IMG/VR virus record: IMGVR_UViG_3300002835_000001
Span: 1 to 64,000 of that record
DNA length: 64,000 nucleotides
Direction: 5' to 3' (one strand)
Source: a virus
Lineage: Duplodnaviria > Caudoviricetes
In this document: piece by piece, positions 30,998 to 56,970 of the stretch
Layout of the letters: each line of letters begins with the position of its first letter
Position numbering within the stretch: position 1 is the first letter of the stretch
Program-made: the position numbers and the translations under genes
The notes under the pieces: generated by a model
The model's input: only the letters and a program-made list of their open reading frames with translations
What the model was told of the DNA's origin: nothing
The model's database searches: none

Positions 30998-31651
30998 CTA
31001 TCCTATAACATTTTGCATTTCATCCGTATGATGATCATCAACCCCAAGTTCGGAACCAATCGGTCTCTTCTTCATGTCGTTTATAACTTTCCTTAAATCA
31101 TATGGTGCAAATTCAGGATTACCATCCATCCCAACATCCATTCTACGACCATTTCCAAACTTTTTATGGTTAGGTAGGTGACAATGTCCATGAAGGTGAA
31201 TACGTCCTTTATTCAATCCATTCCACGAAGCAATTGGGTAGTGCATCAACTCAAGTGTTTCACCTAAGTAATTTAATTGTAGGAACCATTGTGATGATGC
31301 AAAATGTCTTTGGCAAGCTTCACGGTCCCTTTCAATATGGTGGTCATGATTACCAAAAGTTAAATGAATCTCTTTACAGATAATTCTATTACGAAACTCT
31401 TCTATTTGTTCAAACCCACCAAACGACCAATCACCTAAATGAATCAACACATCATCCTGACCGACAACCTCATTGATGTTGTTAACTATTGATGCGTTCA
31501 TTTTATCTAGATTCATGAAATCTCTAGTTTGTGCTTCAGGTACGGAACCATCTAACATTCTCCATTTAGTTACACCACGACATATGTTTGTGTGGTTATA
31601 ATGTGTATCGGATGTTATCCAAACCTTTCTATTGTTCTCTATCTTTAACAT
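30998..31651 (-). CDS. calcineurin-like metallophosphoesterase
   Basis: TSDTHYNH, HLGDWS, GNHD, MHYP and LHGHCH motifs. Confidence 0.9.
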   Translation of the reverse strand: MLKIENNRKVWITSDTHYNHTNICRGVTKWRMLDGSVPEAQTRDFMNLDKMNASIVNNINEVVGQDDVLIHLGDWSFGGFEQIEEFRNRIICKEIHLTFGNHDHHIERDREACQRHFASSQWFLQLNYLGETLELMHYPIASWNGLNKGRIHLHGHCHLPNHKKFGNGRRMDVGMDGNPEFAPYDLRKVINDMKKRPIGSELGVDDHHTDEMQNVIG

Positions 31652-32064
31652 TATCCTCTGAAAAATTTAAAATCTTTATTATTTATCCTTCTATTTGGTG
31701 GTTCTATTCTTTCTATTGTAGACCTAATTGCCGTTTCTCTTTCTAATTGTGCTTGAGCAATTCGTGATATCGGTGGCGGAGGTGGGATAATTCTACCAAA
31801 ACTTGTCATTCGTTGTCTGTTAATTTCTGACATTGTTCTAAACCATCCTCTATGTTGATTGTTACTCTCCCGTTCCATTACCCCATAATATTTCTTCTTC
31901 TCCTCAACATCCTTTCCTACTATTAAAGCCAATATTGGTCCTAACAATAATGCGCCTATTATCATATCCAAACCCAATGTATAATGTTTATTATGATAAT
32001 ACATTACATATGTTGATGACATTATCCAAACCAATATTAAAAAAACGATTAATAACGTACTCAT
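31651..32064 (-). CDS. membrane protein with C-terminal DFKFFRG motif
   Basis: Two TM helices; ends NKDFKFFRG-stop. Confidence 0.7.
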   Translation of the reverse strand: MSTLLIVFLILVWIMSSTYVMYYHNKHYTLGLDMIIGALLLGPILALIVGKDVEEKKKYYGVMERESNNQHRGWFRTMSEINRQRMTSFGRIIPPPPPISRIAQAQLERETAIRSTIERIEPPNRRINNKDFKFFRG

Positions 32065-45585: not shown

Positions 45586-46770
45586 TTAATTACTTAATGG
45601 GGCTTTTATTGATGGGTGTGATTCGTACCCCTCAATTATGAATTGATATGGTTGTGATTCTTTTATGTGGTCTTCAAAGGTATCCCTATGATGTTCAAAA
45701 TGTGCCAATTGTATTGGACTAAACTTTAGCACTGGCAAGTTCTTATATGGTTCTCTACCAATTTGTTCTTTAGCTTGTTCAATGTGGTTAGAATACAAAT
45801 GAACATCTCCTAAGTTACCTATTAGGTCTTCTGGTATCATATTAACTTCATTTGCAAGAATCTCTAATAACAAACCATATGATGCAATATTGAATGGTAA
45901 ACCTAAGAATGTATCGACTGAACGTTGGTTCCACATTAATGATATTGCTCGTTTAGGTATCCTATAAGATTCCAATTCCTCACTTAACCCGCCACCAAAC
46001 GGAACAATGTCATCTATCATTGATTGGAACTTCTCTTCTCCCACTTTTTTCTTTAATAAATCCCACATCTCTTCTCCAGTTAATTTTCTAGTGTAGAGTT
46101 GAAATCCGTAATGACAAGGTGGAAGAACCATATGTTCTAACTCACCGACATTCCAAGCTGATACCATCAATCTTCTACTATCGGGATTTGTTTTTAGTTC
46201 ATCAATTAAGTTTTGTATTTGGTCAATGCCTTCTTTCCATATTGAAGGGCCATCTAACCCTAACGGAGTAGTGTACTCACCTTCTCTCCACCTTCTCCAT
46301 TGTTTACCATAGATTGGACCTAACTCACCAAACTCTTTTGCAAACTCATTATCTATTTTAATTAGATTAATAAATTCCTCTTGTGTTAAAGGTATTAACA
46401 AATCCGAGTTACTGAATAGTTTTTCAATGTGGTCTTGCATTCCCATAATATCACCACATTTGTATCCATCAATAATTTCATTCACTTCTTTGGTATAATT
46501 CTTATAAGCATCCCCATTCCAAATGTTACAACCATTATCAACAAGATATTTGATGTTGGTGTCACCTTTTAAAAACCATAGTAATTCGGTTACCATTGTC
46601 TTCCATGCCATCTTCTTTGTGGTAAGTAATGGAAACCCTTGTGACATCTTGTGTTTAATTTGTCTACCAAATACTGAAATAGTTCCAGTACCTGTTCTGT
46701 CCGTTTTTACGACTCCATTATCTAAAATATCTTCTAATAAATCTTGATATCTTTTATCTAATCTATTCAT
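45586..46770 (-). CDS. thyA: thymidylate synthase
   Basis: DRTGTGT, FPLLTTKK, ELLWFL.G, GPIYGKQW, SRRLMVSAWN, LPPCH, QRSVD..LGLPFNIASY and HLYSNH motifs. Confidence 0.97.
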   Translation of the reverse strand: MNRLDKRYQDLLEDILDNGVVKTDRTGTGTISVFGRQIKHKMSQGFPLLTTKKMAWKTMVTELLWFLKGDTNIKYLVDNGCNIWNGDAYKNYTKEVNEIIDGYKCGDIMGMQDHIEKLFSNSDLLIPLTQEEFINLIKIDNEFAKEFGELGPIYGKQWRRWREGEYTTPLGLDGPSIWKEGIDQIQNLIDELKTNPDSRRLMVSAWNVGELEHMVLPPCHYGFQLYTRKLTGEEMWDLLKKKVGEEKFQSMIDDIVPFGGGLSEELESYRIPKRAISLMWNQRSVDTFLGLPFNIASYGLLLEILANEVNMIPEDLIGNLGDVHLYSNHIEQAKEQIGREPYKNLPVLKFSPIQLAHFEHHRDTFEDHIKESQPYQFIIEGYESHPSIKAPLSN

Positions 46771-46772
46771 GT

Positions 46773-47141
46773 TTACCATTTTGGTGATTCTAACCTTTTT
46801 ATGTTATCTTGTTCGTCTTGTCTGCTGAAATTTTCTTTATGAGCTAAAATTCTGTGAAACTCTCTATATGATTGTGGTTGGTAATTTTTTAAATGGTCAA
46901 GCCCATATTCATACTCAAATAAAATTTCAGAATATCTTTTTTCTTTAGAATCAAATCCATCTGATTGCATTTTCAAATCCATTTGTAATTCATTAATTAC
47001 GTTTTGTAATGAATCTTCCTTACAGATTGTAGTTGTCACAACGGGTGTGGGTTTATCATTAAAATACATTAATGAAACACATACCCCAAATAAGGAAACA
47101 ATTGCCCCGAATGTTAATACACTAGTATCTCTATTTTCCAT
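46773..47141 (-). CDS. membrane-anchored coiled-coil protein
   Basis: N-terminal TM helix, EDSLQNVINEL. Confidence 0.6.
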   Translation of the reverse strand: MENRDTSVLTFGAIVSLFGVCVSLMYFNDKPTPVVTTTICKEDSLQNVINELQMDLKMQSDGFDSKEKRYSEILFEYEYGLDHLKNYQPQSYREFHRILAHKENFSRQDEQDNIKRLESPKW

Positions 47142-49162: not shown

Positions 49163-49327
49163 ATGGGATGCGGATGTAAAAAAAGAAACGAAGAACAACC
49201 GATTGAATCGGTACCATTAACAATTAAAATTGAGGAACCGACACAAGATGTTCCCCAAACTGATGATATATTTTCGGTTAGAGTTGAATCAGCCCCACCA
49301 AAAAATAATCAACAACCTCAAGCGTAG
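49163..49327 (+). CDS. small MGCGCK protein (54 aa)
   Basis: Hand translation MGCGCKKRNEEQP... Confidence 0.55.
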   Translation: MGCGCKKRNEEQPIESVPLTIKIEEPTQDVPQTDDIFSVRVESAPPKNNQQPQA

Positions 49328-49407
49328 GTAAAATATCGGATAGGACTATTTTGTTTTGTCCGATATTTTTTTTATACTTGATATATATAATTTTATATAT
49401 TATAAAC

Positions 49408-49605
49408 ATGAAAACAGAACAAAAACTAACAAGCGTCAATATATTGGATGATGTTTACAAAAAATTTAAAACTAAATCGATTGAGGGTTCTATTAATTTA
49501 CAAAAATTAGTGAATCGTTCTATGGATTTATACAATAAAGATGAAAACTTTAGAAGTACAATAAACAATCACGTTGGATTGGCGACGACAGGATCTAAAT
49601 TTTAA
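49408..49605 (+). CDS. small putative RHH-type regulator heading the glycan operon
   Basis: KLTSVNI...YKKFK...NLQKLVNRSMDLY strand-helix-helix pattern. Confidence 0.5.
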   Translation: MKTEQKLTSVNILDDVYKKFKTKSIEGSINLQKLVNRSMDLYNKDENFRSTINNHVGLATTGSKF

Positions 49606-49606
49606 T

Positions 49607-50968
49607 ATGAAGAAGAAAAAAATACTTTTATTATCTGACGATTTAAGGATGACATCCGGAATTGCCACTATGTCGAAAGAAATTGTGATGGGTACCATTC
49701 ACAAATATGATTGGGTACAATTAGGTGCAGCGATTAAACATCCTGAGTTCGGTAAAATTGTTGATGTTAACGACGATATTAGAACAAGGACCGGTGTTAA
49801 AGATGCTAATTTGAAAATTATTCCGTATAATGGTTATGGTGACGTTGGTATTCTTCGTAAATTAATAGACGATGAGAAACCAGATGCCATTTTACACTTT
49901 ACTGACCCACATTATTGGCAGTGGTTATATGATGTTGAGCATGAGATAAGACGACACACTCCAATATTATTTTATCATATATGGGATGATTTACCGGACC
50001 CACAATACAATAGAGATGTTTTTGAATCTTGTGATTGGTTGGGTTGTATATCTAAACAAACGTATGGTATCGTACATCGTGTTGGTAAGAGAACTGATAA
50101 AGTAACATTTAATCCATTAAAGGATTGGCAAATTAGTTATGTTCCTCATGGTATTAATCCTGATTTATTTAAACCATTGGATAGAATATCGGATGATATT
50201 AATAATTTAATTCATGGTGATAAGAAATATGATTTTGTTTTATTCTTTAACAGCAGAAACATTAGAAGGAAACAACCAAGTGATGTGATTTATTCATTTA
50301 GATTGTTCTGTGATATGTTACCAAAAGAAAAGGCGGATAAGTGTTTGTTACTAATGCACACGAATCCTGTTGATGAGAATGGTACCGACTTACCTGCTGT
50401 AATTGATGCTGTTTGTAAAGATTACGACGTTAAGTTCACCAATTTAAAATTGGAACAAGATAAATTAAATGAAATTTACAATGGTGTTGATTGTACGATT
50501 AACATTGCAAACAATGAAGGATTTGGATTAACAACTGCTGAGAGTTTAATGGCGGGTGTACCAATCATTGTTAATGTTACTGGTGGTTTACAAGACCAAT
50601 GTGGATTTGATTATACAGAAGATGATTACATTAATGTAGGTACACTTCACAATAAAGAAGTACATGGTAACATAAATCATGGTGACTGGGTTGAACCTGT
50701 TTGGTCGTCAGCTATTAATTTGAATGGTTCGGTACTAACACCATATATCTTTGACGATAGAGTTAATGACAATGATGTTGCAAATGCCATCATGGAGATG
50801 TATAAAATTGGTAAGAAGAAAAGAAAAGAAAAAGGATTAAAGGGTAGGAAGTTTATGATTAACAATCTATCAAATAAAATAATGTGTGATAAAATGATTG
50901 AGGGTATTGAACAAACCTTAGAGAATTTTAAACCAAGAAGTAAATTTAATTTATACAAGATTATATAA
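49607..50968 (+). CDS. glycosyltransferase (GT-B/GT4-like)
   Basis: YVPHGI, RNIRRKQ and NEGFGLTTAESLMAG motifs. Confidence 0.9.
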   Translation: MKKKKILLLSDDLRMTSGIATMSKEIVMGTIHKYDWVQLGAAIKHPEFGKIVDVNDDIRTRTGVKDANLKIIPYNGYGDVGILRKLIDDEKPDAILHFTDPHYWQWLYDVEHEIRRHTPILFYHIWDDLPDPQYNRDVFESCDWLGCISKQTYGIVHRVGKRTDKVTFNPLKDWQISYVPHGINPDLFKPLDRISDDINNLIHGDKKYDFVLFFNSRNIRRKQPSDVIYSFRLFCDMLPKEKADKCLLLMHTNPVDENGTDLPAVIDAVCKDYDVKFTNLKLEQDKLNEIYNGVDCTINIANNEGFGLTTAESLMAGVPIIVNVTGGLQDQCGFDYTEDDYINVGTLHNKEVHGNINHGDWVEPVWSSAINLNGSVLTPYIFDDRVNDNDVANAIMEMYKIGKKKRKEKGLKGRKFMINNLSNKIMCDKMIEGIEQTLENFKPRSKFNLYKII

Positions 50969-50969
50969 T

Positions 50970-52217
50970 ATGAACAAACCATTTTTATTATTTAGAGGAC
51001 CAGTTAAAACAAGAAGTGGATATGGTGCCCACTCAAGAGATTTGTTACAAGCACTTTATGAAATGGATTTGTTTGAAATCAAGATTGATAGTTGTATGTG
51101 GGGTTCAACCCCGATGACGGCATTGGAAGATAATTTATTTCATAAATGGATTGAGTCTAATATTGTTAATCAATTAGAAAAAACACCAGACATTTACGTT
51201 CAAGTAACTGTTCCAAATGAATTCCAAAGAGTTGGTAAATTTAATATCGGGATTACTGCCGGCATTGAAACGACTATTGCGCCTAAGGATTGGATTGATG
51301 GTTGTAATAGAATGGATTTAATTGTTACAACATCCACCTTTTCAAAAGATGTTTTGTTACAAACAGTTTACAATGAGAATGAACAAAATACCGGTAAATT
51401 AATTAAACAACATAAGATTGAAAGACAAATAGAAGTTCTATTTGAAGGTGTTGATACCAAAATATACAACAACGTTTATAACAATATTGACATTGACATC
51501 AAAGAAGATTTCGCTTACCTATTTGTTGGTCATTGGTTAAAGGGCGACACGGGTCAAGATAGAAAAGATGTTGGTATGTTGATTAGATGTTTCGCTGAAG
51601 CATTTAAAGATGTTGAAGATAGACCTGCTCTCATCCTTAAAACATCATCAGCATCGTTCTCAATTAAAGAAAGAGAAAGTTTTAGAAAGAAGATAGAAGG
51701 GTTAGTGAGTGATTATAAAAATCCACCATCAATCTATTTGTTGTTTGGTGATTTAACTAATGATGAGATGAATAATTTATATAATCATCCTAAAGTTAAA
51801 TCAATGGTAACGATTACAAAAGGTGAAGGGTTTGGTAGACCTTTATTAGAATTTACAATGACAGGTAAACCCGTAATTGCATCAAACTGGTCAGGACATA
51901 AGGATTTCCTACCAATGGATAAAGCAATTATGATTGGTGGTAAATTAACCGAGGTTCATGAAAGTGCGGTTGATACTTTTATATTGAAAGATTCTAAATG
52001 GTTTACCGCAAACTACAACGAAGTGACTGAAGTTTTTAAATTGGTTTATAAAGACTACGATAAATTTTTAGAGAAGTCTATGATGTTGGGTGATGAGAAT
52101 AAAGAAAAATTCTCAATGGAAAAAATGAAAGAAAAGTTTAAAGATATTATTAATCCATTCTCAGTACAACCAAAAGAACAAAAACTTATACTACCTAAAC
52201 TTACTAAAATAAAATAA
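50970..52217 (+). CDS. glycosyltransferase (GT-B/GT4-like)
   Basis: RSGYG.HSR and KGEGFGRPLLE...PVIASNWSGH motifs. Confidence 0.9.
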   Translation: MNKPFLLFRGPVKTRSGYGAHSRDLLQALYEMDLFEIKIDSCMWGSTPMTALEDNLFHKWIESNIVNQLEKTPDIYVQVTVPNEFQRVGKFNIGITAGIETTIAPKDWIDGCNRMDLIVTTSTFSKDVLLQTVYNENEQNTGKLIKQHKIERQIEVLFEGVDTKIYNNVYNNIDIDIKEDFAYLFVGHWLKGDTGQDRKDVGMLIRCFAEAFKDVEDRPALILKTSSASFSIKERESFRKKIEGLVSDYKNPPSIYLLFGDLTNDEMNNLYNHPKVKSMVTITKGEGFGRPLLEFTMTGKPVIASNWSGHKDFLPMDKAIMIGGKLTEVHESAVDTFILKDSKWFTANYNEVTEVFKLVYKDYDKFLEKSMMLGDENKEKFSMEKMKEKFKDIINPFSVQPKEQKLILPKLTKIK

Positions 52218-52218
52218 G

Positions 52219-52482
52219 GTGATGAACTTTAAATTTTTTCAAGGGAAGACTAACTTGTTTTTAGAATTGGAACCAACACAAATATTAACATTAACACGAC
52301 CATCATTTACATCAGAGAATGTTGAGTTTTGTTTTCAGTTCGGGAACAACGAACCAGTTGTATTTGCAACAGGTCCTAACGAATGTAGTATACATTTGAG
52401 TCCAACTATTAGTAGTGAAATGTCATTCACGGATAATGATAACGTATTTAAATTATTTGCAAGGGAGAGACAAAATGATTAG
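52219..52482 (+). CDS. FKFF-motif small protein
   Basis: Begins MMNFKFFQG. Confidence 0.7.
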   Translation: MMNFKFFQGKTNLFLELEPTQILTLTRPSFTSENVEFCFQFGNNEPVVFATGPNECSIHLSPTISSEMSFTDNDNVFKLFARERQND

Positions 52483-52729
52483 TGAATTTAAATTTTTTCA
52501 CGGGATAACAAAAAAGGGGATTAGAAGACTTCGTGCTACTTGGGGTCCTGATTTAATTGAAAGACGTGTCGATGTTGAAGGGGAATTAATAAGAGTAATG
52601 TCACAGGAAATTGCTAGAGGTATTGATAAGGAAATCATTAATACAATAGTAAGAAGAATAAATGGTGGTAGTAATCATGGTATTGATTATTTAAACCATT
52701 GGTTAAGAGTAGGGGAGAATAGAGCATGA
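52475..52729 (+). CDS. FKFF-motif protein carrying a T4 gp23-like major capsid fragment
   Basis: MISEFKFFHGITKK followed by RRLRATWGPDL..DVEGELIRVMSQEIARGIDKEII. Confidence 0.6.
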   Translation: MISEFKFFHGITKKGIRRLRATWGPDLIERRVDVEGELIRVMSQEIARGIDKEIINTIVRRINGGSNHGIDYLNHWLRVGENRA

Positions 52730-52816
52730 AATGTGAAAGACATATTTGGGATACGGAAGATAGAGAGTGGTGTTGGAAATGTGAGGAGTTAACATTAAAT
52801 GAAAATAAACAAAAAT

Positions 52817-53440
52817 ATGAAGATAAGTTATGCAATAACAGTTTGCAACGAATTGGAGGAGATAAAGAGATTGGTCCCCTTCATTCTGAAACACAAAAGA
52901 CCGATAGATGAAATTGTAATTCTGTACGATGAGAAGAATGGTAACAAAGAGATATTAGATTTTTTATTACCATATAATAAATTACCCAATGTTCAAACAT
53001 GGAGATGTTTCGATTGGAACAATAACTTTTCGGATTGGAAAAACATTCTTAATGGTTATTGTGAAGGTGATTACATTTATCAAATAGATGCCGATGAAAT
53101 GATTAGTGAGTATATGGTTAAGAATTTATCGGACATATTAGAAATGAATCCTGGTGTGGACTTAATATTTGTTCCAAGAATTAACACGGTTCAAGGTTTA
53201 ACCGATGAACATATTAAAAAGTGGGGGTGGAATGTGAATGAAAAAGGATGGGTTAACTATCCTGATGCACAGGGAAGAATCTATAAGAAAGGAATGGGTT
53301 GGTATGGTAAGGTTCACGAACGAATTTTAGGTGGTCAGAAATTTTCATCATTACCAACCGATGACGACGATTATTGTATACAACACCATAAGACAATATT
53401 AAGACAAGAAAAACAAAACAATTATTATAATACATTATGA
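52817..53440 (+). CDS. glycosyltransferase family 2
   Basis: ISYAITVCNE, QIDADE, YPDAQGR and KVHE motifs. Confidence 0.9.
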   Translation: MKISYAITVCNELEEIKRLVPFILKHKRPIDEIVILYDEKNGNKEILDFLLPYNKLPNVQTWRCFDWNNNFSDWKNILNGYCEGDYIYQIDADEMISEYMVKNLSDILEMNPGVDLIFVPRINTVQGLTDEHIKKWGWNVNEKGWVNYPDAQGRIYKKGMGWYGKVHERILGGQKFSSLPTDDDDYCIQHHKTILRQEKQNNYYNTL

Positions 53441-54174
53441 GAGTAGCAATTATTTGTATCGCCAAAAATGAAGACCAATATATCGAGGAATGGTCTAATT
53501 ATCATTTGAAATTAGGGTTTGATGATATCGTCATTTATCAAAACAACTGGAAGTGTAAACTAGAACACCCAAATATTAAACTTGTTAACTTTCCCGGTAA
53601 TCACGTACAAATGGAAGCTTATAATGATTTCATTAAGAATTATAAAAATGATTACGATTGGGTAGCATTTATTGATTGTGATGAATTTATACATTTAAAA
53701 AAACATTCAAACATTAAAGAATTTATTTCTGAATACCACAATGATTTTGGTATTTCAATGAACTGGTACATGTTTGGTTCTAATAATAAATTAGTTAGAG
53801 ATAATGAAAACAAAAATTCATTGATAAAACAATTTATATTAAGAGATAAAGATGTTAATCGTCATATAAAAACTTTATTGAATTTAAAAAGCGAATCAAA
53901 AATGTCTTTTCCACATAATCCAACAAATAAATTAATGGATACGAATGGGAAATTTTTCTATGGTCCGTTTAATGAGAATGGACCGACAGATGTCGTTCAA
54001 CTAAATCATTATTATTATAAAACATATGAGGATTGGTTAATTCTTTGTGAAAGAGGACAAGCCGATTATACCCCAACTAAAACCCCTAAATTATGGTTAA
54101 ACAATACACATGTTTTTTGTGATGTTGAGGATTATGGGGTTTATAACTTTATGTACAATAAAAATCAATTATGA
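53437..54174 (+). CDS. glycosyltransferase (GT2/GT92-like)
   Basis: AKNEDQYIEEW..YH..LGFD, WVAFIDCDEF and QLNHY motifs. Confidence 0.88.
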   Translation: MRVAIICIAKNEDQYIEEWSNYHLKLGFDDIVIYQNNWKCKLEHPNIKLVNFPGNHVQMEAYNDFIKNYKNDYDWVAFIDCDEFIHLKKHSNIKEFISEYHNDFGISMNWYMFGSNNKLVRDNENKNSLIKQFILRDKDVNRHIKTLLNLKSESKMSFPHNPTNKLMDTNGKFFYGPFNENGPTDVVQLNHYYYKTYEDWLILCERGQADYTPTKTPKLWLNNTHVFCDVEDYGVYNFMYNKNQL

Positions 54175-54785
54175 GTTATCAATATCCGAAAAATTTTAAA
54201 TATCCTAATGAGAGAATATTCTTTACTGACCACATAGACTTATGGGAAGATTCTTTAGGTCAATTAAAAAATAAACCAAACGTTACTTTAGAGATTGGTG
54301 CATTATATGGTGGTTCTTCTGTTTACATATTAGAAGAATATTGTAAGTTAGATGGGTCTCACCATTACATCATGGACATTAATACTAATGAGTTTATAGA
54401 AAACAACATCGAACCATATACTGGTAAGGTAAGTTATTTACTTGGTGAGTCCTCGGACGCGTTTAAAGTGTTGGAACACAATGGTTTTAATAAAGAATTT
54501 TTAGACCTGATATACATAGATGGTAACCATATGTCTAAGTATGTTTTAGAAGATGCAGTCAATGCTTTCTATTGTTTAAAAGACGGTGGGTATCTCGTAT
54601 TTGATGATTACGGTGGGGGTTGGGAGCAACCTAAACATATGCAAGTTAGGACTGCGGCGGATGCATTTATGGATGCATATATGAACCACTTTAAAATATT
54701 ACACAAAGGTTACCAATTAATTTTACAAAAAACAAACTATATTAACATAACTGAATTTAAAGAAAATTATTATAAAACATTATAA
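54171..54785 (+). CDS. class I SAM-dependent methyltransferase (Methyltransf_24-like)
   Basis: LEIGALYGGS, DLIYIDGNH and LKDGGYLVFDDY motifs. Confidence 0.9.
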   Translation: MSYQYPKNFKYPNERIFFTDHIDLWEDSLGQLKNKPNVTLEIGALYGGSSVYILEEYCKLDGSHHYIMDINTNEFIENNIEPYTGKVSYLLGESSDAFKVLEHNGFNKEFLDLIYIDGNHMSKYVLEDAVNAFYCLKDGGYLVFDDYGGGWEQPKHMQVRTAADAFMDAYMNHFKILHKGYQLILQKTNYINITEFKENYYKTL

Positions 54786-54823
54786 AATATCGAAAAAATT
54801 AACTATATTATAAAAAAAACACA

Positions 54824-56005
54824 ATGAAAAAAGAGATACCATTATTTAAGGTTTTTATGGCAGACACCGCAGCGGATAAAGTCGCCAAAGTATTAAACAG
54901 CGGATTTATTGGTCAAGGACCTGTCGTGGATGAGTTTGAAAATACACTTAGTCAATATTTTCAACACCCTTACATTTCGACATTAAACGCAGCAACATCT
55001 GCAGAACATTTAGCATTACATCTAATTAAGAAACCATTTAGATTTACAAAAGCAGATGGTTATGGTGTTAGAGAAAACGTGTGGGACGGTATGAAAGATG
55101 GTGATGAGGTTTTAACAACTGCATTAACCTGTACCGCAACTAATTGGCCAATACTTGCAAACAATTTCAAAATCAAATGGGTTGATATCGATCCTAAAAC
55201 TTTGAATATGGACATGGATGATTTAGAAAGAAAGATTGGACCCAAAACCAGAGCAATTATTGTTGTTCATTGGGGTGGGTATCCAGTTGATTTAGATAGA
55301 CTTAGACAAATTCAAGAAAAGTCTTTACGTATGTATGGATTTAAACCTGCGGTGATTGAAGATTGCGCACACGCTATGGGTAGTAAGTACAAAGGTAAGT
55401 TGATTGGTACACATGGTAACATTTGTACATTCTCATTACAAGCGATTAAACATATTACATCTGTTGATGGTGGGTTATTATTCTTACCTCATGAAGAATT
55501 AAATAGACGTTCTCGTTTATTAAGATGGTATGGTATTGATAGAGATTCACCAAGAAAGGATTTTAGATGTGAAGCAGATATCGAAGAGTGGGGATTCAAG
55601 TTTCATATGAATGATGTAAACGCAGCAATTGGATTGGAGAATTTTAAACACGTGGATAACATCATTGGTAAACATAAATCAAATGCGGCATTCTATGATA
55701 AAGAATTAAAGAACGCTAATGGTGTAACTTTATTAGAAAGAAATCCCGATATGGAAAGTGCGTTTTGGATTTATTCGTTGTTAGTTGAAAGAAAAGGTGA
55801 CTTCATGAAATATATGAAAGAATGTGGCATTGCCGTTTCTCAAGTTCACGAAAGAAATGATATTCACACTTGCGTAAAAGACTATCGTGCAATGTTACCT
55901 AACTTAGATAAAACTATCGGTAGTGTTATCTCAATACCAGTTGGTTGGTGGTTAACAGAAGAAGATAGAAAGTATATTGTAGATTGTATCAAAAAAGGTT
56001 GGTAA
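54824..56005 (+). CDS. DegT/DnrJ/EryC1/StrS sugar aminotransferase
   Basis: IGQGP.V.EFE, VHWGG, IEDCAHA, FSLQAIKHITSVDGG and GFKFHM motifs. Confidence 0.95.
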   Translation: MKKEIPLFKVFMADTAADKVAKVLNSGFIGQGPVVDEFENTLSQYFQHPYISTLNAATSAEHLALHLIKKPFRFTKADGYGVRENVWDGMKDGDEVLTTALTCTATNWPILANNFKIKWVDIDPKTLNMDMDDLERKIGPKTRAIIVVHWGGYPVDLDRLRQIQEKSLRMYGFKPAVIEDCAHAMGSKYKGKLIGTHGNICTFSLQAIKHITSVDGGLLFLPHEELNRRSRLLRWYGIDRDSPRKDFRCEADIEEWGFKFHMNDVNAAIGLENFKHVDNIIGKHKSNAAFYDKELKNANGVTLLERNPDMESAFWIYSLLVERKGDFMKYMKECGIAVSQVHERNDIHTCVKDYRAMLPNLDKTIGSVISIPVGWWLTEEDRKYIVDCIKKGW

Positions 56006-56970
56006 TGGAGAGAATAGTTGATGATTCATTTTTGAAATCTGATGTAACGGAGTTTGCGTTAGGTTATGATAAAGTTAAAAATCATACTTGGTATGATAAC
56101 TTAAACTACATGGTTGATTTATCTAAAAAATATTTCAATGTGGATGATTTTATTATGGATTATTCGTGTGGTACTGGTATTTTTTGTGAAAGGTTATTAA
56201 AATCTATGGTTGATTGTCCAAGAATTTTAATGATGGATTCATCACCAAAGTATCTTAAATTATCACATGATAAATTTGGTCGAAATCATAAATTTCATTT
56301 TAGAGTTATCAATTACCTTAAAGATGAAGGTAGACTACAAACAATATCGGAGGTCTTAGGTAAAGAACATGAACAATTATTAGATGGGATTGTTTGTACA
56401 AACGCAATTCACCTATATCCAACAATAGATGAGACAATTAAATCTTGGAATAAAATTTTGGTTAAGGGTGGCAAGTTGTTAATTAATTCAGGTAACATAT
56501 ATAACCCATTAATGGGTGAGGAAACTAAATTGATTGACCAAACAGTAAATGAGATATCTAAACTATCATTTGATATTGTGAGGAATAACCCAAAATACAA
56601 CAAGTATGTTGATTTAATAAGTGATTTTGACTATATTAATAAACATAACACACTTAGAGATAAATATTTTTTACCTATTAGACAAATTAATTTTTACACG
56701 GATGAGTTAATTAAAAATGGATTTAAAATAGTGGAAGTTAAAACTATCGATGTTGACGCTAGAGTTGATGAGTGGTTTGATTTCTTGAAAGTATATCACG
56801 AAGGTATAATAGGTTGGATTGGTGGTTCTAAAAAAATCACGGGTGTTAATCCAAGTGAGGATGAAGTTAACGACAGGATTGAGATTATAAAATTGGCACT
56901 AACAGAAATGTTTAATAACCAAAACGACTTTAAAGCGTGTTGGAACTATATAATTTGTGAAAAAATATGA
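56005..56970 (+). CDS. class I SAM-dependent methyltransferase
   Basis: MDYSCGTG, D.SPKYL and LVKGGKL motifs. Confidence 0.85.
   Translation: MERIVDDSFLKSDVTEFALGYDKVKNHTWYDNLNYMVDLSKKYFNVDDFIMDYSCGTGIFCERLLKSMVDCPRILMMDSSPKYLKLSHDKFGRNHKFHFRVINYLKDEGRLQTISEVLGKEHEQLLDGIVCTNAIHLYPTIDETIKSWNKILVKGGKLLINSGNIYNPLMGEETKLIDQTVNEISKLSFDIVRNNPKYNKYVDLISDFDYINKHNTLRDKYFLPIRQINFYTDELIKNGFKIVEVKTIDVDARVDEWFDFLKVYHEGIIGWIGGSKKITGVNPSEDEVNDRIEIIKLALTEMFNNQNDFKACWNYIICEKI

What the first reader, a model, noticed from the sequence alone, without database searches (positions are those of the whole stretch)
52475..52729. FKFF-tagged mini-protein carrying a fragment resembling T4-type major capsid protein
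Seen: after the tag the 84 aa protein reads RRLRATWGPDL..RVDVEGELIRVMSQEIARGIDKEIINTI. From recalled family knowledge, gp23-type capsid proteins have a conserved segment of the form R.LKA.(W/Y)..ELAQDL...H..DAEAEL..IL..EI..EI..E(I/V). The pattern R.L.A.W.P.L / D.E.EL / S.EI...ID.EI is retained. Inference: an isolated capsid segment could act as a decoy for capsid-sensing host defences, a dominant-negative inhibitor of competing phages, or an assembly modulator. It is embedded in the glycosylation operon, far from any structural module in this window.
Basis: partly seen in the sequence, partly recalled or inferred. Interest (0 to 1): 0.72.

Follow-up and report, generated by a model that had tools for sequence, protein, structure and literature searches.

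The report
Capsid-fragment mini-protein in a phage sugar operon
A large uncultured lake-water phage carries a small, conserved gene that is a true copy of one structural piece of its T4-type head protein, fitted with a short N-terminal tag and kept inside a sugar-attachment operon; its job is unknown, but it most likely acts on the phage's own head protein.

Summary
ORF 52475-52729 (+) encodes the quoted 84 aa protein. Its middle is truly homologous to gp23-type major capsid proteins (MCPs):
- Pfam Gp23 E 5.9e-4 for this copy, and 30 of 31 relatives match (best 1.7e-13).
- The family profile against an MCP alignment gives probability 98.7%, E 2.8e-16.
- tblastn finds the Rhodothermus phage RM378 head protein at E 2e-6.

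The copied piece maps to T4 gp23 residues 263-310, from the P-domain strand to the spine helix. T4 head-length and gp31-bypass mutations lie in this stretch.

It is not a stray remnant:
- The family has 61 clusters at 90% identity.
- Pairwise dN/dS is mostly 0.15-0.5.
- The M..FKFF.G tag is invariant.
- In every contig checked it sits after two GT4 glycosyltransferases and a small partner protein, whose stop codon it overlaps.

The stretch between tag and helix is hypervariable between phages whose flanking enzymes are 98-99% identical.

Function is inferred only. My best reading (about 0.37) is mimicry of a capsid contact element that acts on the phage's own MCP, possibly linked to virion glycosylation. 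A decoy role is less likely. The folds were poor, the complex prediction gave no verdict, and the phage's own MCP could not be reached. This scan had already noted the same stretch in an overlapping window (e1-5405664).

The parts
52475..52729 (+). Mini-Gp23 ORF: 84 aa plus TGA stop
   Evidence: Family of 61 clusters. Alignment A1.
52475..52504 (+). N-terminal tag MISEFKFFHG (aa 1-10)
   Evidence: F5, F7, F8 and G10 are invariant and K6 is kept in at least 90% of 31 relatives. The same motif occurs on 11 other small ORFs with varying codons. AF2 pLDDT is below 50 here.
52520..52660 (+). MCP-homologous segment (aa 16-62): P-domain strand IRRLRATW, a shortened loop, the acidic D-x-E-x-EL start and the spine helix
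   Evidence: hhalign vs MCP alignment: probability 98.7%, E 2.8e-16. Maps to T4 gp23 263-310. AF2 helix at aa 34-62. Role of the T4 stretch from PMC9546572.
52658..52675 (+). Invariant turn I-N-G-G-x-N (aa 62-67) right after the helix
   Evidence: R60, I62, N63, G64 and G65 are invariant; N67 is kept in at least 90%. One partial MCP (P0174) has ...AINGGK after its spine helix. Equating this turn with the HK97-fold G-loop is inference.
52676..52726 (+). Family-specific C-terminal tail HGIDYLNHWLRVGENRA, ending in conserved N-R-A
   Evidence: Y72 is invariant; G80 and A84 are kept in at least 90%. Short forms of 68-70 aa drop the tail but still end NGG(Q/L)RA. No match to MCPs.
52222..52482 (+). 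Partner protein A (86 aa), beta-rich, FKFF-tagged, stop overlapping the mini-ORF start
   Evidence: Present directly upstream of the mini-ORF in all loci read. No MCP similarity (hhalign probability 0.1). AF2 pLDDT 59.7 with three strands.
52463..52469 (+). SD-like GGGAGAG, 5 nt before the ATG
   Evidence: Read directly from the sequence.
49607..50968 (+). GT4-family glycosyltransferase a (453 aa)
   Evidence: Pfam Glycos_transf_1 and GT4-conflict. PHROG 2170. Best solved relative is chlorovirus NY-2A B736L, E 6.6e-8.
50970..52217 (+). GT4-family glycosyltransferase b (415 aa), immediately upstream of partner A
   Evidence: Constant 5' neighbour in all relatives.
52799..53440 (+). GT2-family glycosyltransferase (213 aa), the usual 3' neighbour
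   Evidence: Synteny. In L031 an epimerase takes this place.
49408..49605 (+). Conserved 65 aa ORF at the head of the operon, ribbon-helix-helix-like by eye
   Evidence: Conserved in L022, L023, L029 and L033. No Pfam hit. The RHH reading is inference.
53437..62668 (+). Variable remainder of the glycan operon: GT2/GT92-like enzymes, sugar methyltransferases, DegT aminotransferase, hexapeptide acyltransferase, PhyH dioxygenase, KAS III, SDR, epimerase
   Evidence: Gene content differs between relatives. Terminator-like hairpin at 62654-62679.

Best explanation
The gene encodes a functional small protein that arose by copying one element of a T4-type major capsid protein (MCP). The element runs from the P-domain beta-strand through the short acidic helix and the spine helix to the turn that follows. 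It now sits between an N-terminal M..FKFF.G tag and a new C-terminal tail.

The protein keeps nearly all residues that are invariant in this segment of full-length MCPs. It lacks the rest of the HK97 fold. I therefore think it works by molecular mimicry: it occupies, on the phage's own unassembled capsid protein or on a factor that reads that protein, the site this element normally contacts.

It is co-transcribed and translationally coupled with a small beta-rich partner, inside the conserved GT4-GT4 core of a glycan operon. So the most likely use is to hold or present capsid protein to the glycosylation enzymes, or to time its assembly relative to them.

Shown: the homology, the conservation, the purifying selection and the operon position.
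Inferred: binding to the MCP, any link to glycosylation, and what the tag does.
For: - Homology to the MCP segment.
- MCP-invariant residues are kept: the R-x-L-x-A-x-W strand, P-E, D..YH in most relatives, D-x-E-x-E-L, S, I, and E/x-I-D..I. Compare with the invariant list and the segments.
- In T4 this stretch carries head-length mutations (A268V, A275T, D285V, D287V/N) next to the short helix that makes inter-capsomer charge contacts. It also carries the gp31-bypass sites G292, V306 and V307 in the spine helix (PMC9546572). So it is a contact and folding element, not an inert linker.
- The gene is functional: 61 clusters at 90% identity, 70 clusters at 50% identity with E<=1e-10, dN/dS mostly 0.15-0.5.
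- Both termini are conserved.
- Low single-chain AF2 confidence (pLDDT 55.7, one long helix) fits a protein that folds on a partner.
- Position is fixed after GT4a-GT4b-partner A in every contig read, down to 28-44% identity, while downstream genes change.
- There is an 8-nt stop/start overlap with partner A.
- Cultured relatives with the same GT4-GT4-GT2 core and a single gp23-type MCP lack the pair. The pair is therefore an add-on to that core.
- The closest solved relative of GT4a is chlorovirus B736L. A review suggests it may act on the capsid-protein glycan (PMC4691112). This is a weak lead.
Against: - No direct evidence of binding to anything.
- The phage's own MCP could not be fetched, so mini-protein and MCP were never compared or co-folded within one genome.
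- The whole region is collinear in this phage clade (thymidylate synthase, DUF192 and methylase are conserved too). Constant position may therefore partly reflect common descent rather than functional coupling.
- The target of the glycan operon is unknown. It could be virion protein, host envelope or DNA.
- The strand and loop part varies a lot, with indels, even between phages whose flanks are 98-99% identical. That is unexpected for a part that must fit an almost invariant MCP surface.
- The tag is shared with about 11 unrelated small proteins elsewhere in the genome. This points to a common fate that need not involve capsids.
Confidence: 0.37

Rival explanations
1. Tag-defined cargo with a new target. 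The FKFF.G tag routes about a dozen unrelated small proteins to one reader, such as a host machine, a phage protease or unfoldase, or a compartment. In this member the capsid-derived amphipathic helix has been re-used to bind something other than capsid protein, for example one of the GT4 enzymes or a host factor.
For: - The tag is invariant in the family and shared with 11 other small ORFs with unrelated bodies.
- Codon spellings differ, so the peptide is under selection.
- The most conserved parts are the tag, the helix, the INGG turn and a tail with no MCP counterpart.
- The strand and loop are free to vary.
Against: - The residues kept in the helix and strand are the same ones that are invariant in MCPs. 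That is not expected if only a generic helix were needed.
- No reader of the tag is known.
- No literature on the motif was found.
Confidence: 0.25
2. Decoy against a capsid-sensing host defence. The free fragment would soak up a sensor that recognises this conserved MCP segment before capsid protein accumulates.
For: - It is a faithful copy of a very conserved MCP segment.
- Local hypervariability and allele swapping between near-identical phages are typical of arms-race genes.
- Capsid proteins are known triggers of several defence systems (general knowledge, not tested here).
Against: - The hypervariable part is the mimic itself (aa 9-42). The matching MCP segment is almost invariant in the MCPs compared, and a decoy should track its model.
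- It lies in a glycan operon, not among the other small tagged ORFs.
- No defence system is known to read this segment. From memory, the T4 Gol peptide lies elsewhere in gp23.
- Nothing was tested.
Confidence: 0.13
3. Dominant-negative capsid poison used against co-infecting related phages, or a head-size or assembly modulator that is independent of glycosylation.
For: - In T4, mutations in the homologous stretch change head length and inter-capsomer angles (PMC9546572).
- A free copy of a contact element could cap that interface.
Against: - The target segment is nearly identical in the related MCPs compared, so self-poisoning would be hard to avoid.
- The gene is not in the head module, which an earlier unchecked note places about 170 kb away.
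- T4 core protein gp67 shows no similarity.
Confidence: 0.12
4. Decaying remnant of a partial MCP duplication with no function of its own.
For: - This copy scores below the Pfam cut-off and has a small internal deletion.
- Predicted fold confidence is low.
Against: - The ORF is intact in 61 clusters at 90% identity and in dozens of 50%-identity clusters.
- dN/dS is well below 1.
- There are invariant residues at both termini.
- Translational coupling is conserved.
Confidence: 0.03

Closest known systems
gp23-type (HK97-fold) major capsid protein, Pfam PF07068: P-domain strand, short acidic helix and spine helix (T4 gp23 residues 263-310)
   Same: Clear sequence homology over about 50 residues, with the MCP-invariant residues kept. 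The predicted long helix lies where the spine helix is.
   Different: Only about one eighth of the Pfam profile (positions 161-197 of 376) is present. There is no A domain, insertion domain, N-arm or P-loop, so it cannot build a capsomer. It carries a foreign N-terminal tag and C-terminal tail. It is encoded in a glycan operon rather than the head module.
Capsid targeting sequence (CTS) on T4 internal proteins IPI-III and Alt
   Same: A short conserved N-terminal peptide shared by otherwise unrelated small phage proteins.
   Different: The motif is different. No conserved L/I-x-E protease site follows it: I-S-E in this copy is not conserved, and relatives read MVKN, MRAF or MKKF. There is no evidence of packaging.
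Small capsid-binding accessory proteins: the decoration or cement proteins T4 Soc and lambda gpD, and the satellite size-redirecting proteins P4 Sid and SaPI CpmB (comparison from general knowledge)
   Same: Small proteins that act by binding MCP at or near capsomer junctions. This is the kind of action proposed here.
   Different: None of them is a fragment of the MCP itself. No sequence or fold similarity was found. Binding is not shown here.
Virus-encoded capsid glycosylation: chlorovirus glycosyltransferases (e.g. B736L) and mycobacteriophage virion glycosylation (the latter from general knowledge)
   Same: A virus-encoded multi-enzyme glycan pathway. GT4a's best solved relative is B736L.
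   Different: No capsid-derived accessory peptide is described in those systems in what I could search. The acceptor of this operon is unknown.

Membership tests
Gp23 major capsid protein (PF07068) | Score at or above the curated Pfam cut-off (24.4 bits) | tested here: not met
   The window copy scores 19.8 bits, E 5.9e-4. Relatives do better: 30 of 31 match at E<=0.01, best 1.7e-13.
Gp23 major capsid protein (PF07068) | Full HK97 fold: N-arm, E-loop or insertion domain, P domain with P-loop, A domain (about 450-680 aa) | tested here: not met
   The protein is 84 aa and matches profile positions 161-197 of 376 only, or MCP residues 331-382 of 574. It is a homologous fragment, not a capsid protein.
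Gp23 major capsid protein (PF07068) | Homology of the shared segment | tested here: met
   hhalign probability 98.7%, E 2.8e-16. RM378 MCP E 2e-6. T4 gp23 263-310 E 6.7e-6.
T4-type CTS-tagged internal (packaged) proteins | N-terminal leader ending in a conserved L/I-x-E prohead-protease site | tested here: not met
   Residues before FKFF vary (ISE, VKN, RAF, KKF, VRE), and no conserved Glu site follows the tag.
T4-type CTS-tagged internal (packaged) proteins | Presence in the virion or prohead core | not testable with these tools
   Needs virion proteomics of an isolate. None exists for this lineage.
FKFF.G-tagged small-protein set of this phage clade (informal) | F-K-F-F-x-G within the first 10 residues of a small ORF, conserved as a peptide | tested here: met
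   MISEFKFFHG. F5, F7, F8 and G10 are invariant in 31 relatives. Twelve ORFs in the window carry it with six codon spellings.
Capsid decoration or cement proteins | Binds the assembled capsid lattice at defined symmetry sites | not testable with these tools
   The cognate MCP was not available. The one complex job went to partner A and gave no verdict.

The most novel reading that the evidence does not exclude
A phage has turned a piece of its own capsid protein into a separate adaptor or pseudo-substrate. Together with a small partner protein, it couples a virus-encoded multi-enzyme glycosylation machine to the capsid protein. It would either present unassembled capsid protein to the enzymes or gate assembly until the protein is modified. 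The FKFF.G tag would serve as a docking label. This would be the first capsid-fragment accessory factor for a post-translational modification pathway in a phage.
Probability: 0.18. Interest if true: 0.8.

Novelty: new variant of a known kind. Interest (0 to 1): 0.6.

Why it matters
Free-standing, conserved copies of a single capsid-protein element are not described in the curated libraries (Pfam and PHROGs give only the parent MCP family) or in the literature I could search.

If the protein binds its parent capsid protein, it gives a natural minimal handle on the inter-capsomer and spine-helix element, which governs head size and chaperonin dependence in T4. It would also give a first clue to what the large, fast-changing glycan operons of freshwater T4-like phages decorate.

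It is also one well-defined cargo of an undescribed N-terminal tag system. Because its likely partner can be guessed, it is a convenient entry point for finding the tag's reader.

Tried and rejected
- **Complex prediction.** Partner A (A2) with the mini-protein (A1) gave no verdict: ipSAE 0.01-0.02, controls not run. This is not evidence either way.
- **Single-chain AF2 models.** Both were low confidence (pLDDT 55.7 and 59.7). No fold search was run on them because the matches would be meaningless.
- **Reaching the phage's own MCP.**
  - No genome is held for the window.
  - Three IMG/VR contigs that carry the mini-gene are 30-53% complete and hold only the mini copy.
  - JGI contigs cannot be searched whole.
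  - A protein search from MCP P0210 returned thousands of MCPs, none on the long contigs that carry the mini-gene.
  - P0200's contig does not look like this lineage.
- **Search for longer proteins with the family profile.** It gave only one read-through gene call and two ordinary MCPs.
- **Repeat-rich hits.** Three repeat-rich proteins in the exhaustive search (P0102, P0169, P0171) are false positives from summed repeats.
- **Partner A as a second MCP piece.** Rejected: hhalign probability 0.1, no phage tblastn hit, no Pfam or PHROG hit.
- **T4 core protein gp67 as a relative.** I recalled a possible link; it was rejected (probability 0.2).
- **ESM Atlas feature search.** No usable hit.
- **Metatranscriptome contigs.** Four RNA libraries cover parts of GT4a and GT4b but not 52306-53175. 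Missing cover is no evidence, and DNA carry-over cannot be excluded.
- **Promoter scan.** The sigma-70 scan found fewer sites than in shuffled sequence and is uninformative. Expression timing could not be set.
- **Literature.** Searches for FKFF, capsid decoys or capsid fragments found nothing relevant.

Full report
**What is there.**

The + strand ORF 52475-52729 starts at an ATG that lies 5 nt after an SD-like GGGAGAG. Gene callers sometimes extend it upstream to 97 aa (P0001). Family conservation begins at M-x-x-FKFF, and the extension merely overlaps the end of the upstream gene in another frame. So 52475 is the real start.

The window has 32% G+C. It comes from a large uncultured T4-like phage. 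Its nearest cultured relatives by DNA are the Flavobacterium 'immuto' phages. Near-identical DNA occurs in lake-water metagenomes deposited from 2016 to 2024.

**The tag.**

Twelve small ORFs in the window carry F-K-F-F (once F-K-F-L) within their first eight residues. Nine lie in a cluster at 13.4-17.9 kb on the minus strand, one lies at 8.2-8.5 kb, and two are adjacent here. The four codons are spelled six different ways, so selection acts on the peptide. Within the mini-protein family, F5, F7, F8 and G10 are invariant.

**The capsid resemblance is homology.**

This copy alone is marginal against Pfam Gp23 (E 5.9e-4, 19.8 bits, cut-off 24.4) and PHROG 138 (E 4e-4). Other evidence is stronger:
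- tblastn against 50,697 phage records puts the major head protein of Rhodothermus phage RM378 first (E 2e-6). Most of the weaker hits are also major capsid proteins.
- A full-length metagenomic MCP (P0200) finds only this ORF in the whole window (E 1.4e-5).
- 30 of 31 relatives hit Pfam Gp23, best 1.7e-13.
- A profile of the family aligns to an MCP alignment with probability 98.7% and E 2.8e-16 over 51 columns.
- The same profile aligns to T4 gp23 residues 263-310 with E 6.7e-6 (also PDB chains 5vf3 and 6uzc).

Most relatives read like ...RRLRAHWRPELVDDLNHYHNIDAEEELTRIMSEEIARGIDEDIIR... MCPs read ...RKLKAQWTPEFAQDLNAYHSIDAEAELTSILSEYISMEIDLEIL.... That is about half identical by my hand count, including nearly every MCP-invariant position. 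The window's own copy has lost about five residues of the loop and short helix. This is why it scores lower.

**What the copied element is.**

By the published T4 head structures (PMC9546572), the stretch holds:
- the head-length mutations A268V, A275T, D285V and D287V/N, which lie close to the short, negatively charged P-domain helix that makes charge contacts between capsomers near the quasi-threefold axes;
- residues 292, 306 and 307 of the P-domain spine helix, where substitutions remove the need for the gp31 co-chaperonin.

So the mini-protein carries a contact and folding element of the shell, not a neutral linker. After the helix comes an invariant I-N-G-G-x-N turn. One partial MCP shows ...AINGGK at the same place, so this may be the glycine-rich loop of the HK97 fold (inference). 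The last 17 residues have no MCP counterpart but are conserved and end in N-R-A. Short forms of 68-70 aa drop them yet still end NGG(Q/L)RA.

**It is a functional gene family.**

- A word-indexed search found 61 clusters (90% identity) of 57-111 aa proteins.
- An exhaustive HMMER pass over 1.84 billion representatives found 581 clusters at E<=1e-3 and 70 at E<=1e-10. Nearly all the strong ones are small proteins that begin with the tag. Three long repeat proteins in that list are artefacts.
- Pairwise dN/dS is mostly 0.15-0.5.
- AF2 with the family alignment gives only one long helix (34-62), a short one (69-79) and a disordered N-terminus, at pLDDT 55.7. This fits a fragment that needs a partner to fold, but it proves nothing.

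**Context.**

The order is the same in every contig read, down to 28-44% identity to this copy:
- a conserved 65 aa ORF;
- GT4 glycosyltransferase (about 452 aa);
- GT4 glycosyltransferase (about 415 aa);
- one or two small beta-rich proteins (partner A, usually FKFF-tagged);
- the mini-protein, overlapping A's stop;
- usually a GT2 enzyme;
- then a changing set of sugar-pathway genes.

Here the operon runs from 49408 to 62668. It encodes two GT4 enzymes, four GT2-type enzymes (one of which also matches GT92), sugar methyltransferases, a DegT aminotransferase, a hexapeptide acyltransferase, a PhyH dioxygenase, KAS III, an SDR and an epimerase. Hairpins lie at both ends.

Flavobacterium phage immuto and Microcystis phage Mel-JY01 share the GT4-GT4-GT2 core. 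Each has one ordinary gp23-type MCP, and neither has the small pair. The pair is therefore an addition to that core in this lineage.

Partner A has no detectable relation to MCPs or to anything else. Its model is weak.

GT4a's best solved relative is chlorovirus NY-2A B736L (E 6.6e-8). A review suggests this putative enzyme may act on the capsid-protein glycan (PMC4691112). This is a lead only.

**An unexpected feature.**

Against contig L003, the flanking enzymes are 98%, 99% and 90% identical in protein. Partner A is 65% identical and the mini-protein 61%.

At the DNA level, identity stays at 90-100% through GT4b. It falls to 42-57% only at 52500-52600 (mini-protein aa 9-42: the post-tag linker, strand and loop) and in two patches of A. 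From 52650 onward it returns to about 90%.

Other relatives pair a near-identical A (91-93%) with a divergent mini-protein (58-64%). The post-tag halves of both small proteins are thus local diversity hot spots. The tag, helix, turn and tail are held.

The matching MCP segment, in contrast, is almost invariant among immuto, Mel-JY01 and many metagenomic MCPs. I could not show that those MCPs belong to the lineage that carries the mini-protein.

**Interpretation.**

The shown facts are homology, conservation, operon membership, translational coupling and local hypervariability. Everything about mechanism is inference.

I think mimicry directed at the phage's own capsid protein, or at a factor that reads it, is most likely (about 0.37). 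The MCP-invariant residues are kept, and the element is a known contact and folding determinant. The tie to glycosylation rests only on operon position, which may partly reflect the general collinearity of this clade.

The rivals rank as follows:
- **Tag-defined cargo (0.25).** The tag says the protein shares a fate with about eleven unrelated small proteins. The reading that it has a non-capsid target is a serious rival.
- **Decoy for a capsid sensor (0.13).** This is weakened because the mimic part drifts while its model does not.
- **Poison for related phages or a stand-alone size modulator (0.12).** This faces the self-poisoning problem.
- **Dead remnant (0.03).** This is contradicted by the conservation.

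**Limits.**

- The cognate MCP was never reached.
- The single complex job went to the A plus mini-protein pair and gave no verdict.
- RNA-library contigs cover the neighbouring GT4 genes but not this ORF, which says nothing.
- Expression timing is unknown.
- No paper on the motif or on free capsid-fragment proteins was found.

**Earlier notes of this scan.**

- The same stretch was already noted in an overlapping window (e1-5405664).
- The tag family was listed (e1-5405648).
- A different CTS-like leader on late proteins of the same genome was reported (e1-5405745), which makes it less likely that FKFF is the capsid-targeting signal.
- A note places the head module about 170 kb away (e1-5405715).

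Only the tag list was checked here.

Noticed in passing
window 52200-52300, 52350-52450 and 52500-52600, compared with L003 4875-7100: There are short hypervariable patches (42-74% nucleotide identity, with indels) inside DNA that is otherwise 90-100% identical between two phages. They fall in the post-tag parts of partner A and of the mini-protein. The flanking GT4 enzymes are 98-99% identical in protein.
   Followed up: partly
window 52222-52482: Partner A ends in an invariant F-K-L-F-A-R-(E/D/P) motif that resembles the N-terminal F-K-F-F tag. In one sub-lineage (L012-L018, and a second copy in L033) the partner lacks the tag and starts MPRKKK or MAKKK instead.
   Followed up: partly
window 31651-32064 (-): A 137 aa protein with a hydrophobic N-terminus ends ...RRINNKDFKFFRG. 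That is the FKFF.G motif at the C-terminus, preceded by RRIN, as in the mini-protein's RRINGG.
   Followed up: no
window 49408-49605 (+): A conserved 65 aa ORF heads the glycan operon in all relatives read. By eye it looks like a ribbon-helix-helix regulator. Pfam finds nothing.
   Followed up: partly
window 49139 (+) and many sites on the minus strand (e.g. 10524, 13338, 18030, 25657, 28429, 30109, 32610, 34137, 35857, 47611): TATTTAT boxes lie 10-25 nt upstream of many start codons. These include the first gene of the FKFF cluster (18030) and the 54 aa Cys-rich ORF at 49163. The glycan operon itself is instead preceded by a hairpin (49330-49369) and TTTTATATATT (49391).
   Followed up: partly
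window 57533-59987 (+): PhyH dioxygenase, KAS III (FabH-like) and an SDR sit beside a DegT aminotransferase and a hexapeptide acyltransferase. This suggests an N-acylated, possibly hydroxylated amino-deoxy sugar as a glycan component.
   Followed up: no
window 49607-50968 (+): GT4a's closest solved relative is chlorovirus NY-2A glycosyltransferase B736L (E 6.6e-8). It also weakly matches Pfam GT4-conflict (PF20706).
   Followed up: partly
window 45586-46779 (-): The thymidylate-synthase-family protein is 397 aa, but the Pfam model of 266 positions spans residues 9-396. It therefore carries about 120 residues of insertions. It is conserved next to the operon in relatives.
   Followed up: no
window 49700-52215: Contigs from four lake and freshwater metatranscriptome libraries match parts of GT4a and GT4b, some at 99% or more. 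This hints that the operon is transcribed in nature, but DNA carry-over is not excluded.
   Followed up: partly
L033 8001-8429 and P0095: [quoted passage not shown] Both junctions therefore tolerate large insertions.
   Followed up: no
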